From: Eledone cirrhosa
Lineage: Eukaryota
Assembly: GCA_964016885.1 (NCBI GenBank)
Contig: OZ024746.1
Span: forward strand, 54,932,001 to 54,996,000
Direction of reading: 5' to 3'
DNA: 64,000 nucleotides
The position numbers and the translations under genes are program-made. How positions within the stretch are numbered: position 1 is the stretch's first letter; each line of letters opens with the position of its first letter. Of the stretch, positions 6,902 to 63,640 are shown piece by piece. The notes below the pieces were generated by a model. That model was not told the origin of the DNA. It was given only the letters and a program-made list of their open reading frames with translations, and searched no databases.

Positions 6902-7246
6902 ACGTAGGTCCCGGGTGAGTCGGGGATAACCACAGTAAGTAAGGTACTCAATACATGGCAGAGTAAAATTATTTTATTTTATAGAAGGAACTTCTACAGG
7001 ACTAGTACTGTTTCATTCAGATGAAGATTTCATCTGAATGAAACAGTACTAGTCCTGTAGAAGTTCCTTCTATAAAATATATATATATATATATATATAT
7101 ATATATATATATATATATATTTTATAGAAGGAACTTCTACAGGACTAGTACTGTTTCATTCAGATGAAATCTTCATCTGAATGAAACAGTACTAGTCCTG
7201 TAGAAGTTCCAGCTATAAAATAAAATAATTTTACTCTGCCATGTAA
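6902..7246. mobile_element. Two short palindromic pLTR fragments of HHR family E
   Basis: Inverted arms ending GAAACAGTACTAGTCCTGTAGAAG with centres near 7026 and 7170. Same family at 21670-21880, 36590-36795 and 46770-46902. Confidence 0.75.
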
Positions 7247-7248
7247 TG

Positions 7249-7888
7249 GTTGGAGTGAAAATTTAAGTAAGTAAGTAAAAGATTTTTTAAAAATTTTTTT
7301 AAAAAATATTTTCTTATCTTACGTCTTTTATATTATTGTTCTGCACCCTCCTGCATTGAACCACCTAGGTACTATGACATAACCTGTGTATTTGCTGGCA
7401 TGGACGTGCATCTGTGCGCCTATGTTAGTTGATATATTAAATTATCTATATTTATCTCCAAATCACTGATTTGTCGAGCAAACCTGCCAAAACCACTTCT
7501 AAATTTTTTTTGGCGTGTTAGTAGGCGTCAGTCATCTTACCATCCCATTCCTTCTAACTAGCCTCTGTGTCACGTGATTGATTCTTTAGAATCGGCCATT
7601 TGACTAGAAGCAGTGAGAATTTCAGTACATGGAATCCAGTCCTCGCCAGCTGTTCTTTCTACCGAATTATTATTATTTTTATATGAGCCGCCAGTGTCCG
7701 CGCATTGCATGGAGACTCAGCTGAGAATAGACTCCCTGATAACGCAATGAATTCTCGACAGTTGGATTACGTAACTGTCTTTATCCCATTGCAGAAACTA
7801 ATTAGTTGGAGTGAAAATTTAAGTAAGTAAGTAAAAGAATTTTTAAAAAGTTTTTTAAAAAATATTTTCTTATCTTACGTCTTTTATA
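7249..7888 (+). mobile_element. 556-bp HHR-type unit plus ~80-bp terminal redundancy (retrozyme/pLTR-like)
   Basis: Direct repeat 7249-7332 and 7805-7888. Motif actcc-CTGATAA(7736-7742)-stem II gcaatg/cattgc-GAAA(7794-7797)-ctaattaGTT-ggagt. The core has G8->A. Confidence 0.7.
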
Positions 7889-8247
7889 TATATATATATA
7901 TATATATATATATATATATATATATATATATATTTATTTATATGTATATATATTTATTTATATGTATATATATTTATATATATGTATATATATTTATATA
8001 TTTATATACATATATATATGTATATATATTTATATATGTATATATATTTATATATTTATATATATATATATATATATGTATATATATTTATATATTTATA
8101 TACATATATATATATATATGTATATATATTTATATATTTATATACATATATATATTTATATATATGTAAATATATTTATATATTTATATACATATATATA
8201 TTTATATATATGTATATATATATTTATATATTTATATATATGTATAT

Positions 8248-60700: not shown

Positions 60701-61121
60701 TTTTAAGAAAACCCACTGTACCAATAGGAAATGTATCATTTGTAAGGTGAACCCCCGGATAAACTGTAAAACTAGAAACGTAGTCTATAGCATAAGATGT
60801 ACAGAGGGTACTTGCAGAAACATGACAACAACATACATAGGTGAGACAGCTCGTAGCATAGGTGAAAGGATAGACCAACACTGGGGGGAACTAAAAGGAC
60901 GAAAAAACGGGTCAGTACTATACGAACATGCTAGACAACAACATGACGGTAACATAGACAACATAGAAATTAGAATAATATCTAAACATAGGAATGACCC
61001 AGCAGATAGGCAAATCAGAGAGGCCAGTGAAATAGAAATTAGAAGACCAAAGCTAAACAGAAAGAATGAGTGGAACAACAACAACACCCAAACAAACAAC
61101 ACTGACCTAAGAGAAGTATAA
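57735..61121 (+). CDS. PLE family A polyprotein: N-terminal domain with Asn-rich insert, RT, Cys linker and GIY-YIG (1128 aa)
   Basis: TDKSG, LYGLRKDHK..RPV, SMDVVSLYPSI, GAAIG, YVDD, LPVLD, CTNRKCIIC, VVYSIRC..C..YIGET..H..H. The frame stays open upstream to the junction at ~57625. Confidence 0.95.
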   Translation: MNKTQAERLKHTITVNMKRTTYTKVNALYRQKRINGKEIRNLITANERDDFMSVIRRETKYAQNECCRHFKKKLEWMNKKKLQERKIEYSQKYPDNIDNIRMSDVKLPEEFTNDHTVNIYGNTLISEREQQILKLPPKFAIYKKINPMECKTELEKCFTKIRWNAKVNNNNNNNGSSNINNNSGYRNNSHNHNNGRKVRNSDNGNNTSDRQNNNNHNNNNNRNVNHRHSNSDHSSNNGNNTNNNNNHSGNNGNSTCNNINKNKKHNNSNNHNGRNSSNNNNNNGEVNNNTSSNHNNNNINANDRNNNNHHDNNNSNTHNYDDRNNDNPLEKLFFNPADKTYKMGNIYPTRLPFNKRVCIPQQIDDETEAQFTIARNKIRLVVDRYTMRQSRPEAQQLGIKPVEGLVSLKQRTRDGEVVCLPTDKSGRMSIDSMPNYIEAMQPHITNTSEVAQLKHDGREKILNAHMMIWTDILKPSRRTANNFQASNNGIPPLYGLRKDHKTVDDPTTGPPTRPVCGANIASNYRISYFLSMVIRPIIKMSPDVCESTEDLLSRISECNKNRSLSNCIIGSMDVVSLYPSINIDFAVKRCVEMIIESEVEFCDVDTDELGLLLRLTYDTDYLDSHDLRCFCPSRPIRGRPPTITSMAKKTPIGRWIGWTKAIRTPQNTDQVRKMVAHAIGASIKTTLKGHIFKFNEKIYTQNEGAAIGVSIAGDVANLFMVWWERRLKDLLNESSIDLIMYSRYVDDINIVIRTPPLESTNKFDLERSTMESIQQIANSIHQSITVTIDFPSKHPNNRLPVLDTELWINTIDERAQILHSHYAKPMASKYLILKNSAMSSSAKFNILIADLVRVMKNVSSMCDPTEMEGHIQHFINRMQFSGYNQRDRVRVYEGAMEKYKTLIELDMKGICPLYRSKSWNSLDRARHKIGKATSWYDNQRYQSVMFVDATPGGTLANQCRKALRKTHLKIKVVEKPGTTIKSLISKTYPFKKTHCTNRKCIICKVNPRINCKTRNVVYSIRCTEGTCRNMTTTYIGETARSIGERIDQHWGELKGRKNGSVLYEHARQQHDGNIDNIEIRIISKHRNDPADRQIREASEIEIRRPKLNRKNEWNNNNTQTNNTDLREV

Positions 61122-61642
61122 ATAAGTAAATAAAATTAAATAAAATAAGATAAATAAATACATACACAAGCACATAAACACACACTAGTCACCCAGCAGA
61201 CACAACACTATACACACTAGTCACACATCACACTATACACACACGGAAACGCATGCGCAAAGAAGACAAAATAAAATAAGATAAACAAACAAGCAAATAA
61301 ATAAATAAATATATAGACAGACTGAACAAAAAAAAAATGGCGTAGACATACAACACAACAGGAGGAACAATGAATATAACACCACTGACGATGTTGCAGA
61401 TGTGCAACGAAAGATTTATGTAAATTATGTAAACTATATATATGTGTTTGTGTCTATATTGTATCTGTATTATTTTCGACCGCCGGTCAGTCAATGGCAA
61501 CATTGAGGACCGAGTAAGTTAGATCGCAGATATATATATATAAAAGACAGCGAGAAGCGAAAACCAACCAAACAGTGAGTGTGTTCTGTTATTAATTCTG
61601 GCAATATTACGCAAATATGACCCTCCCCAAATATAACAATAT

Positions 61643-62812
61643 GTATATATATATATGTATATATATATGTATATATATATATATGTATATATTTATATAT
61701 ATATATATCTATATGTATATATATATATGTATATATATGTATATATTTATATATATATGTATATATGTATATATATATATGTATATATATATATGTATAT
61801 ATATATATATGTATATGTATATATATATGTATATATTTATATATATATGTATGTATGTATATATATATATGTATATATACATATGTATATATTTATATAT
61901 ATATATATATATGTATATATATATATATGTATATATATATACATATATGTATATATTTATATATATATGTATATATTTATATATATATGTATATATTTAT
62001 ATATATATGTATATATTTATATATATATATGTATATATTTATATATATATATATATATATTTATATATATATATATATATATTTATATATATATATGTAT
62101 ATATTTATATATATATATGTATATATATATATGTATATATATATGTATATATATATATATATATATATATATATATATTGTATATATATATGTATATATA
62201 TATATGTATATGTATATATATATATATATATATATATATATATATATATATATATATATATATATGTATATATATATATATATATGTATATATGTATATA
62301 TATATATGTATATATATATATCTAAATGTATATATATATATGTGTATATATATATATATATATATGTGTATATATATATATGTGTATATATATAATATGT
62401 ATATATATATATACATATATATATATACATATACATATATATATACATATATATATATATACATATATATATATATATATATATGTATATACATATGTAT
62501 ATATATGTATATATATATGTATATATATATATATGTATATATATATGTATATATATATATGTATATATATAGATATGTATATATATATATGTATATATAT
62601 ATGTATATATATATATGTATATATATATATGTATATATATATATGTATATATATATATATATGTATATATATGTATATATATATATGAATGTATATATAT
62701 GTATATATATGTATGTATATATATGTATATAAATATATGAATATATATATATATGTATATATATATATGTATATATATGTATATGTATATATATGAATAT
62801 ATATATATGTAT
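61643..62812. repeat. (TA)n microsatellite
   Basis: Directly visible. Confidence 0.98.
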
Positions 62813-63640
62813 ATCCTCAGCATTCTCGTGTAGCACCCATCCACCATCTGAGTGAGTTTCTTGGTCAGTGTCTGAGTCTCAGACCCATACAGCAGCACAG
62901 ACTCCACTACAGCAATGAAGAGGCGTATTTTGAGGTCTCTACGAAGGTCCGACTTCCACACCGATCTCAAGCTGTGGCACGCCGCCCAGGCCTTGATCTT
63001 CCTCTCAACCACATCATCCTCCGTATTCCCAATATTTGCTCCCAAATACAGGAAGTCCTCAACCAATTCCAGCGGCTTCCCGCCTACATTAGTGATCCCC
63101 TCTGGCTTCTCAACATTCTCTACCAGATATTTTGTTTTAGTCTCATTCATTCTCAGCCCCACACTCATCGACACAGTCTCAACCTCCCGCATCAAATCCT
63201 CTGCCTCCTTCACTGTATTTGTCACCAACACTATGTCGTCGGCAAATTCAGCATCCGATACCTTTTTCGCCCCAACTCTCCTGCTCTGAGCCGGTGCTAC
63301 AGTAAAGCCATTAATCAGTATACACTGAGGATGAAAAACTCAGAGCTGTATGGGAGCATCCCAAAAGTCAGCTCAAATGTGACACAGAGGAGACTGAGGT
63401 TGGCTGGACATGCTCACCGACATCCAGAGTTGACATTGCACTCAGTGCTCCTTTGGGAGCCCCTACATGGACACACTAGAAGAGAAAGACCAAGGTTAAC
63501 ATATGTTGATGCCCTAAGGACAGACACTGGTCTGTTGGAGATGCAGGATATGGCAGCGATAATGAGGGACAGAGACCGCTGGAGAGAACTCGTCCATGGA
63601 TCTCGGGAATTTTACCCGCCTTAGATAGATAGATAGATAT
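62813..63640. mobile_element. RTE-like LINE 3' fragment with 5' inversion: minus 62813-63285, plus ~63290-63624, then (TAGA)n tail
   Basis: Minus strand [37 protein letters not shown]. Plus strand [28 protein letters not shown] followed by stop. Confidence 0.85.

What the first reader, a model, noticed from the sequence alone, without database searches (positions are those of the whole stretch)
6902..63640. Recurring insertion grammar: 5'-to-5' inverted pairs with 3' ends in (TA)n at all scales
Seen at 6902-7078, 8248-13633, 17888-18098, 18987-21319, 21670-21880, 31741-31928, 36590-36795, 42606-44172, 48500-49335, 49843-52708, 54015-61642 and 62813-63640, and nested at 37033-41590. Unrelated families show the same divergent polarity with unequal arms. 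Inverted copies and microsatellite bias are established for PLEs, but this regularity is striking. Inference: (TA)n is self-complementary, so both strands present the same nick and primer, allowing two cDNAs primed from opposite ends to be joined at their truncation points.
Basis: partly seen in the sequence, partly recalled or inferred. Interest (0 to 1): 0.78.

Follow-up and report, generated by a model that had tools for sequence, protein, structure and literature searches.

The report
Head-to-head Penelope pairs, one tail each
Penelope-type jumping genes and their short ribozyme-carrying passengers sit in TA repeats of this genome as two copies joined head to head (a known arrangement), and in nearly every pair only one copy carries the family's extra 3' 'tail', which likely means each insertion is copied twice, from two fixed start points of the RNA, on opposite DNA strands.

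Summary
The pattern is real but mostly known. Ten of the 13 listed sites are head-to-head, overlapping, 5'-truncated copies of one Penelope-like (PLE) or hammerhead family with both 3' ends in (TA)n. One is an RTE LINE with non-overlapping, L1-type twin-priming arms, one joins two unrelated families, one is compound. In 690 kb sampled away from the window: 66 head-to-head pairs, 1 tail-to-tail. Inverted copies, a tail 'often at one end' and (TA)n bias are published, and this scan noted such pairs in other genomes. New here is a near-strict rule: one arm ends at the family's short 3' end, the other at its tail end (51 of 52 pairs in five families; 44 of 48 independent pairs in the sample). In 17 of 36 pairs neither arm contains the other, which excludes simple fold-back copying there. 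Best model (inferred): two target-primed reverse transcriptions, one from each of the two RNA start sites shown in vitro for an anole PLE, on staggered nicks, joined at their truncation points. (TA)n supplies 2-7 nt of primer pairing, but is not shown to cause the pairing: published PLE pairs occur in non-microsatellite targets.

The parts
54015..57622 (-). Neptune-like PLE (Nep57), left arm, 3.6 kb, 5'-truncated, ends at the TAIL end (55 nt beyond the short end)
57623..61642 (+). Nep57 right arm, 4.0 kb, near full length, RT + C-terminal GIY-YIG ORF (to 61121), HHR core at 61385, ends at the SHORT end; 15-nt TSD-like repeat in the flanks
8248..10723 (-). 310-nt HHR tandem array (retrozyme-like), left arm, 8 units, tail end
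10722..13633 (+). 310-nt HHR tandem array, right arm, 9.4 units, short end (about 32 nt shorter)
48500..49335 (.). 310-nt family pair: 48-nt left arm (short end, -), 2.5-unit right arm (tail end, +)
18987..20900 (-). Hydra-like PLE (Hyd19), left arm with broken RT-thumb/EN frames, short end
20901..21319 (+). Hyd19 right arm, tail end (146-nt tail)
49843..52708 (.). HHR49 non-coding unit: 19-nt inverted arm (short end) + partial tandem + body with HHR at 52458 + 140-nt tail
6902..7078 (.). family A mini-pair: tail arm (-, to about 7025), short arm (+)
21670..21880 (.). family A-related mini-pair: tail arm (-), short arm (+, HHR core 21818)
36590..36795 (.). family A mini-pair: tail arm (-, HHR core 36723), short arm (+, HHR core 36730); junction at the 5' edge of HHR stem I
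17909..18098 (.). family B mini-pair: short arm (-, 52 nt), tail arm (+, 135 nt)
31741..31928 (.). family B mini-pair: short arm (-), tail arm (+)
62813..63640 (.). RTE-type LINE with twin-priming inversion: 62813-63310 (-) and 63309-63640 (+) are consecutive parts of one RNA, 9 nt missing; not a PLE pair
42606..44172 (.). divergent join of two unrelated families: 42606-43004 (-, about 1-kb non-coding tandem unit) and 43006-44172 (+, 3' end of a Hydra-like PLE); both outer ends look like short ends
37033..41590 (.). compound: outer Hydra-like pair (37033-37672 -, 37660-38023 +), inverted 5' ORF piece 38017-38343 (-) and Hydra-like PLE Hyd38 38339-41590 (+, HHR core 41496, short end)

Best explanation
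These are head-to-head insertions of Penelope-like retroelements and their hammerhead-bearing passengers, with one tail-bearing and one tail-less 3' end, and each likely arises from two target-primed reverse transcriptions, one per target strand. SHOWN: head-to-head polarity; two fixed 3' ends per family, 30-165 nt apart; one of each per pair; independent 5' truncation; 0-5 nt or untemplated joints; TA microhomology at short ends; TSD-like repeats above chance; arms usually of one haplotype. INFERRED: the GIY-YIG nuclease nicks both strands of (TA)n about 13-24 nt apart; one RT starts at the tail site from one nick and a second RT starts at the short site from the other; both stop at different places and the two cDNA 3' ends are joined by end-joining or a template jump; fill-in gives the inverted repeat. 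One RNA used twice with strand displacement (about 55%) or two RNAs of one source in an asymmetric dimer (about 45%) cannot be told apart here. (TA)n is the nuclease's target and a short primer match, not the cause of the pairing. The RTE case is ordinary single-RNA twin priming.
For: One tail + one short end in 17 of 17 Nep57 pairs with two canonical ends, 8 of 8 Pen28, 12 of 13 Hyd19 and 7 of 7 HHR49, 7 of 7 rz310: 51 of 52, p = 1e-14 against the 50% that free choice allows at most. Spaced sample: 62 of 66, 44 of 48 without the units used to define tails (p = 8e-10). Strict pooled count 154 of 157 (not independent of the above). Neither arm contains the other in 12 of 17 Nep57, 4 of 12 Hyd19, 1 of 7 HHR49 pairs. 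Short-end microhomology 2.66 against 1.0 nt. TSD-like repeats in 18 of 80 informative pairs against 6.9 shuffled, max 13. HHR49 arms: 2 discordant variant sites against 23 expected. Hetero-family pairs rare, 4 of 161. In vitro, anole Poseidon cuts and extends both strands and starts RT at two sites that bound the tail; AlphaFold dimer predicted there (PMC11167929).
Against: No biochemistry on these proteins. Exceptions: 1 short/short Hyd19 pair (L225), 3 of 20 Nep57 pairs with an internal outer end, 4 tail/tail calls in the sample (at least 2 look like mis-paired tandem units), 3 same-end pairs in the strict count. Family loci are the best-scoring 30-40 hits, not a random draw; family A and B queries contain tail sequence and were left out of the 52. 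Nep57 arms differ at the one common variant in 2 of 12 pairs (about 5 expected at random), and Hyd19 arms are no more alike than copies of different loci (1.5% against 1.4%). Family A/B junctions pile up at one palindromic site (22 of 30; 7 perfect palindromes) and 5 of 67 long-family junctions are near-symmetric (1.9 expected, p = 0.04): fold-back may make a minority. The anole study found no homology at the RT start, unlike the microhomology here. The TSD set includes mis-paired tandem units.
Confidence: 0.7

Rival explanations
1. One reading: (TA)n self-complementarity is what permits the pairs, because both strands offer the same nick and primer; non-palindromic targets would give few or none.
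For: 193 of 222 canonical 3' ends are flanked by TA; TA microhomology at short ends; 59% of PLE ends are paired against 8 of 148 ends of a SINE that mostly avoids (TA)n (confounded by family and enzyme).
Against: Published head-to-head PLE pairs with ordinary TSDs (PMC3846280); both-strand extension on a non-microsatellite target (PMC11167929); pairs here with one end in (GAT)n (L227; R24); SINE pairs without (TA)n, 2 of 4; RTE in (TA)n gives 0 of 5 overlapping pairs against 20 of 20 for Nep57 (p = 2e-5); does not predict the one-tail rule.
Confidence: 0.13
2. Self-priming or fold-back: one cDNA (or an antisense template, as proposed by Arkhipova et al. 2013) folds back and copies itself, giving the second arm.
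For: Palindromic junctions in family A; local hairpin inserts at some joints (L030, L052); slight excess of near-symmetric junctions, 5 of 67; proposed in PMC3846280 Discussion.
Against: A copy must lie within its template; in 17 of 36 pairs each arm has sequence that the other lacks (tail on one, longer 5' part on the other). 62 of 67 junctions are asymmetric. Private variants are mostly in one arm only (60 against 6 shared; post-insertion change contributes). A-run stutter at short ends looks like initiation, not termination.
Confidence: 0.1
3. The units are not retro-insertions made in one event: they are palindromic DNA transposons (MITEs at TA), neighbouring independent insertions fused by deletion, or assembly fold-back artefacts.
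For: Some symmetric TIR elements do occur at TA in the sample; the hetero-family join at 42606-44172 may be a fusion; (TA)n-centred mirrors exist.
Against: Ends are unequal and family-fixed, junctions differ at every locus, arms encode RT/EN or HHR; 66 against 1 polarity; arms differ by 0.3-1.5%; opposite-strand joints of family A occur in raw short reads of three runs from one study (reads mostly 90-95% alike, so of the family, not of these loci).
Confidence: 0.04

Closest known systems
Insertion unit of endonuclease-positive PLEs (Craig et al. 2021, PMC8557442, Fig. 2; Arkhipova et al. 2013, PMC3846280)
   Same: [quoted passage not shown]
   Different: Here the tail asymmetry is counted and near strict across Neptune-like, Hydra-like and non-coding families; tails reach 140-165 nt (published 30-40); neither-arm-contains-other pairs argue against the published self-priming reading.
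Anolis Poseidon (PAc) in vitro TPRT (Frangieh et al. 2024, PMC11167929)
   Same: Two RT start sites bounding the tail; both target strands cut and extended; AT-rich target.
   Different: That paper (main text read) does not tie the two sites to inverted pairs and reports no strand difference in start site and no RNA-DNA homology; the genomic pairs here use one site per strand and show TA microhomology.
L1 twin priming (as described in PMC11702581 passages; original Ostertag and Kazazian 2001 not read)
   Same: Second target 3'-OH primes a second RT; arms meet 5' to 5'; TSD kept; end-joining at the inner junction. The RTE copy at 62813-63640 fits fully.
   Different: In L1 the second start is a variable internal site next to the first cDNA's end, so arms do not overlap (1-10 bp gaps or duplications); in the PLE pairs the second start is a fixed site 30-165 nt from the first and arms overlap by up to 3.5 kb.
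Non-LTR retrozymes (bioRxiv 10.64898/2026.07.22.740005; minimal HHRs, PMC4209133)
   Same: 310-nt tandem unit with a type I HHR in each repeat, no ORF, proposed PLE passengers.
   Different: Both arms are multi-unit arrays in inverted orientation and obey the same one-tail rule, a structural link to PLE enzymes; circular RNA not tested.

Membership tests
EN+ PLE (canonical) | Single ORF with RT and C-terminal GIY-YIG | tested here: met
   Pen28: Pfam RVT_1 and GIY-YIG over cut-off. Nep57: no Pfam hit on the whole ORF, RVT_1 E 8e-4 on the 3811-5100 copy, YVDD and VYSI..YIG motifs, weak match to the Pen28 EN (E 0.01).
EN+ PLE (canonical) | Partial tandem (pLTR), ORF start in the pLTR | tested here: met
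   L018 and L040 tandem joints; ORF opens at a Met inside the 3' repeat.
EN+ PLE (canonical) | Inverted 5'-truncated copy and optional tail | tested here: met
   20 of 31 Nep57 loci; other families.
EN+ PLE (canonical) | HHR in the pLTR | tested here: met
   Core pattern with stem II at 61385/54327/3369, 41496, 52458. Rfam gave no HHR at gathering score. Cleavage not tested.
Neptune clade (Nep57, Pen28) | CX2-5CxxC linker, CCHH in EN, DKG motif | tested here: met
   CTNRKCIIC / CDRPNCGIC, TDKSG / ADKGS, two Cys and two His around the core; definition from PMC8557442.
Neptune clade (Nep57, Pen28) | Placement in an RT phylogeny | not tested
   No reference PLE proteins in hand; hence 'Neptune-like'.
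Hydra clade (Hyd38, Hyd19) | CxCX5C linker, DKT motif, RWK motif, no CCHH, (TA)n target | tested here: met
   CNCRDRSKC, SDKTNN, IRWRAF (RWR variant) in L337 and the window; definition PMC8557442 section 11. Phylogeny not tested.
Non-LTR retrozyme (310-nt unit) | At least two tandem units, each with a type I HHR, no ORF | tested here: met
   17 HHR cores at 310-nt spacing, units identical but for one base.
Non-LTR retrozyme (310-nt unit) | Self-cleavage and circular RNA | not testable with these tools
   Needs RNA data or assay.
L1-type twin priming (62813-63640) | Non-overlapping consecutive arms, internal second start | tested here: met
   5 of 5 inverted RTE loci, gaps 0-241 nt.
L1-type twin priming (PLE pairs) | Non-overlapping arms, variable internal second start | tested here: not met
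   20 of 20 Nep57 pairs overlap; second start fixed. They work like twin priming but are not members of that class.
MITE / TIR transposon | Equal terminal inverted repeats, constant interior | tested here: not met
   Unequal ends, a different junction at each locus.

The most novel reading that the evidence does not exclude
PLE integration is programmed twin priming: an RT-endonuclease dimer reads one RNA molecule twice, starting at the tail site from one target strand and at the short site from the other, displacing the first cDNA as it goes. The inverted pair is then the primary product of every event, single copies are pairs whose second arm was lost or aborted, the tail is the spacer between the two active sites, and retrozyme arrays are made by the same machine running on a circle from both nicks.
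Probability: 0.3. Interest if true: 0.75.

Novelty: new member of a known kind. Interest (0 to 1): 0.48.

Why it matters
How PLEs make their tandem and inverted structures is named as an open question in PMC8557442. The one-tail-per-pair rule turns a loose description ('often at one end') into a constraint that any mechanism must meet, links it to the two RT start sites seen in vitro, rules out simple fold-back for about half of the informative pairs, and gives a direct experiment (strand- and site-resolved TPRT on one molecule). It also ties HHR mini-elements and retrozyme arrays to PLE enzymes by a shared insertion signature, and warns that such hairpins can be mis-annotated as MITEs or microRNAs (Rfam sub-threshold miRNA hits). 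The anatomy itself is ordinary for PLEs.

Tried and rejected
Rfam: no family at gathering score; sub-threshold hits are TA-hairpin miRNA models. PDB sequence search: no solved relative of Nep57 or Pen28 at E up to 1. Dimer prediction of the Nep57 N-terminal 203 residues, no alignment: no verdict; not used either way. Sequencing runs: no RNA holder listed. Search for a PLE family with a non-(TA)n target: the 30 best GIY-YIG loci were all Neptune-like and mostly TA-flanked; the within-genome flank contrast (13 of 132 paired and 16 of 90 unpaired ends not TA) is dominated by tandem continuations and later changes, so it is uninformative. A (CAT)n...(GAT)n-flanked unit (R25) proved to be two separate SINE-like copies 1.2 kb apart. 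One RNA or two: haplotype test mixed, near-symmetric junction test weak. Exact-extension junction measure was thrown off by nearby substitutions; BLAST overlaps are quoted instead. Folding of tail regions showed hairpins but no shared structure. My notebook says 21 pairs and 18 canonical for Nep57; a recount gives 20 and 17, used here. A cephalopod repeat annotation (PMC13282606, passages) and D. virilis TE paper (PMC12910113, passages) held nothing on pair structure.
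Full report
SETTING. The window is G000:C6:54932001-54996000 of a 3.0-Gb genome in 1796 contigs. It is a mosaic of (TA)n tracts and retroelement pieces. (TA)6+ covers 14% of the window and 5.7% of 600 kb taken as 30 spaced 20-kb blocks; (CA/TG)6+ covers 1.0%.

OBSERVATION. Self-inverted hits in the TA-masked window: 104, against 0 in 10 shuffles. Ten of the 13 listed sites are overlapping head-to-head pairs of one family with both outer ends in (TA)n; polarity comes from ORF strand or from the HHR core. 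Three differ. 62813-63640 is an RTE-type LINE (RVT_1 and DUF6451 below cut-off): among 30 loci, 10 ran off the fetched DNA, and 5 of the other 20 are inverted, all with consecutive non-overlapping arms (gaps 0, 6, 9, 10, 241 nt). 42606-44172 joins a non-coding tandem family, whose fixed end is at 42606 in 15 of 15 loci, to the 3' end of a Hydra-like PLE. 37033-41590 is compound; its inner inverted piece is the first 326 bases of the ORF with about 175 nt lost. Non-inverted copies also occur in the window.

FAMILIES. Nep57 (54015-61642) and Pen28 (27367-30230) have Neptune-type motifs; Hyd19 and Hyd38 have Hydra-type motifs (definitions in PMC8557442). Families A and B, HHR49 and the 310-nt unit are non-coding HHR-type passengers (family B has the GAAA/stem III half only). 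Clade names rest on motifs, not on a tree.

POLARITY. Nep57: 40 best hits gave 31 loci; 20 head-to-head, 0 tail-to-tail, 2 tandem, 9 single. Spaced blocks plus 90 kb beside the window, scanned with 27 polarised 3'-end references: 66 head-to-head pairs, 1 tail-to-tail adjacency (two neighbouring pairs); 132 of 222 canonical ends are paired; 193 of 222 are TA-flanked.

THE ONE-TAIL RULE. Each family has two fixed 3' ends. In Nep57 the short end falls at codon 8 of the next unit's ORF and the tail end at about codons 22-27, as for Adineta Pen2a (PMC3846280). Pairs with both canonical ends seen: Nep57 17 of 17 short+tail (3 further pairs have one internal end); Pen28 8 of 8 (4 more with one end off the locus or interrupted, 2 with internal inverted pieces, of 30 loci); Hyd19 12 of 13 (6 more incomplete or internal, of 30 loci) and HHR49 6 of 6 plus the window copy; 310-nt family 5 of 5 plus two window copies (20 loci). 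Total 51 of 52; free choice of end gives at most 50% (p = 1e-14). Families A (25 of 30 loci inverted, all partners short) and B (20 of 30 with a short partner close by) agree but were found with tail-containing queries and are not counted. In the sample 62 of 66 pairs follow the rule; 18 of these defined a family's tail, leaving 44 of 48. A stricter pooled count gave 154 short+tail, 1 tail+tail, 2 short+short, and 4 hetero-family pairs, 3 of them short+short; 212 further left arms had no library end on the right or reached an edge and were not classed.

WHAT THE ARMS SAY ABOUT MECHANISM. (1) The tail arm is the shorter at the 5' side in 12 of 17 Nep57, 4 of 12 Hyd19 and 1 of 7 HHR49 pairs; there each arm holds sequence that the other lacks, so neither can be a fold-back copy of the other. 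(2) Junctions differ at every locus; Nep57 shows 0-5 nt overlap in most and 3-10 nt inserts in three. 62 of 67 junctions in five long families are asymmetric by more than 20 nt; 5 are near-symmetric against 1.9 expected (p = 0.04). (3) Short ends overlap the (TA)n flank by a mean family median of 2.66 nt against 1.0 (19 families, p about 1e-4; three families show 0). (4) TSD-like repeats with a non-TA marker: 18 of 80 informative pairs against 6.9 (max 13) in 200 shuffles; lengths 8-40, the clearest 13-24 nt; the set includes mis-paired tandem units. (5) Arms usually share a haplotype in HHR49 (2 discordant sites against 23 expected), less clearly in Nep57 (2 of 12 pairs discordant at one site), not detectably in Hyd19. 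(6) Family A and B arms stop at the upstream edge of the HHR (22 of 30 in A), as an earlier unchecked note reported for another genome (e1-7858714).

MODEL. Established from PMC11167929 (abstract and main text read): an anole PLE cuts and extends both target strands and starts RT at two sites that bound the tail. Inferred here: both nicks are used in one event, one per RNA site; the cDNAs stop independently and are end-joined. One RNA read twice would explain the rule directly (one site of each kind per molecule) and the rarity of hetero pairs, but needs strand displacement (PLE RTs lack RNase H: recalled). Two RNAs in an asymmetric dimer would also fit. The 8 + 9.4-unit arrays need a circular or long multimeric template on either view.

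ROLE OF (TA)n. It is the target of all PLE families found and pairs with the RNA by a few bases. It is not shown to cause pairing: head-to-head PLE pairs with 9-10 bp TSDs are published (PMC3846280 passages and Discussion); Chlamys use (CA)n and (C)n, and the abstract gives tandem/inverted structure for the N-terminal EN group as a whole (PMC8557442; no per-target counts seen); two pairs here have one end in (GAT)n; a tRNA-headed SINE forms 4 adjacent head-to-head and 0 tail-to-tail pairs among 148 3' ends, two without (TA)n; and the RTE in (TA)n gives no overlapping pairs (0 of 5 against 20 of 20). The direct test, a non-(TA)n PLE in this genome, was not available. Self-complementarity may matter elsewhere: mirrors centred on a tract were seen at 8 of 735 TA tracts and 0 of 523 CA/GA tracts (p = 0.02), a mixed set.

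ARTEFACT CHECK. Family-fixed unequal ends, locus-specific junctions and arm divergence argue against assembly fold-backs. Raw short reads of three runs from one study show five opposite-strand joints within family A; these support the family-level structure, not these loci. The window's own junctions were not checked in reads.

LITERATURE SEEN. PMC8557442: passages and sections 9, 11. PMC3846280: passages and Discussion. PMC11167929: parts 1-2 of 4. bioRxiv 10.64898/2026.07.22.740005: part 1 of 5. PMC4209133, PMC7229834, PMC8969392, PMC9977147, PMC13282606, PMC12910113, PMC6007223, PMC11702581: passages. No supplements. Eight searches showed no paper that counts end types in pairs or links the two RT starts to opposite strands; older subscription papers are not in the library.

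VERDICT. Known PLE anatomy in new families, with one quantitative rule that sharpens an open mechanistic question. Interest 0.48.

Noticed in passing
window 6949-7248: Mirror duplication centred on (TA)n that repeats the neighbouring pair's 5'-5' junction exactly; likely a DNA-level fold-back at the TA hairpin. Such mirrors were found at 8 of 735 TA tracts and 0 of 523 CA/GA tracts, a mixed set that includes TIR elements and neighbours.
   Followed up: partly
window 36595-36795 and L051-L080; 17909-18098 and L291-L320: 5' ends of families A and B pile up at the upstream edge of the HHR stem I, not at the cut site; may mark the RNA 5' end or an RT stop.
   Followed up: partly
window 42606-44172; R22, L117, L210, L027: Divergent joins of two unrelated families without TA between; mostly short+short ends, unlike same-family pairs.
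   Followed up: partly
window 58137-58718 and 56994-57575: Long Asn-rich insert in the Nep57 ORF upstream of the RT, like the N-rich inserts of Adineta Penelope ORFs (PMC3846280), here at a different position.
   Followed up: no
tails of families A, B, HHR49 and u2: A short TTGAGT(A/G)C motif recurs in the tails of several unrelated families; possible protein-recognition element. Not tested against chance.
   Followed up: no
window 15245-17432, 25010-26494, 30387-31658: Non-coding tandem units of about 610-645 nt between TA tracts; one has an HHR core (15594); probably further PLE passengers inserted without an inverted arm.
   Followed up: no
R09, R16, R28, L051: A tRNA-headed SINE forms adjacent overlapping head-to-head pairs (4 among 148 3' ends, none tail-to-tail), two without (TA)n.
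   Followed up: partly
L069, L055, L062: A-run stutter and repeated AAAAAAAAT units at family A short ends, suggesting reiterative RT initiation.
   Followed up: no
window 62813-63640 and L111-L140: A young RTE-type LINE family (98-99% identity) also sits almost always in (TA)n.
   Followed up: partly
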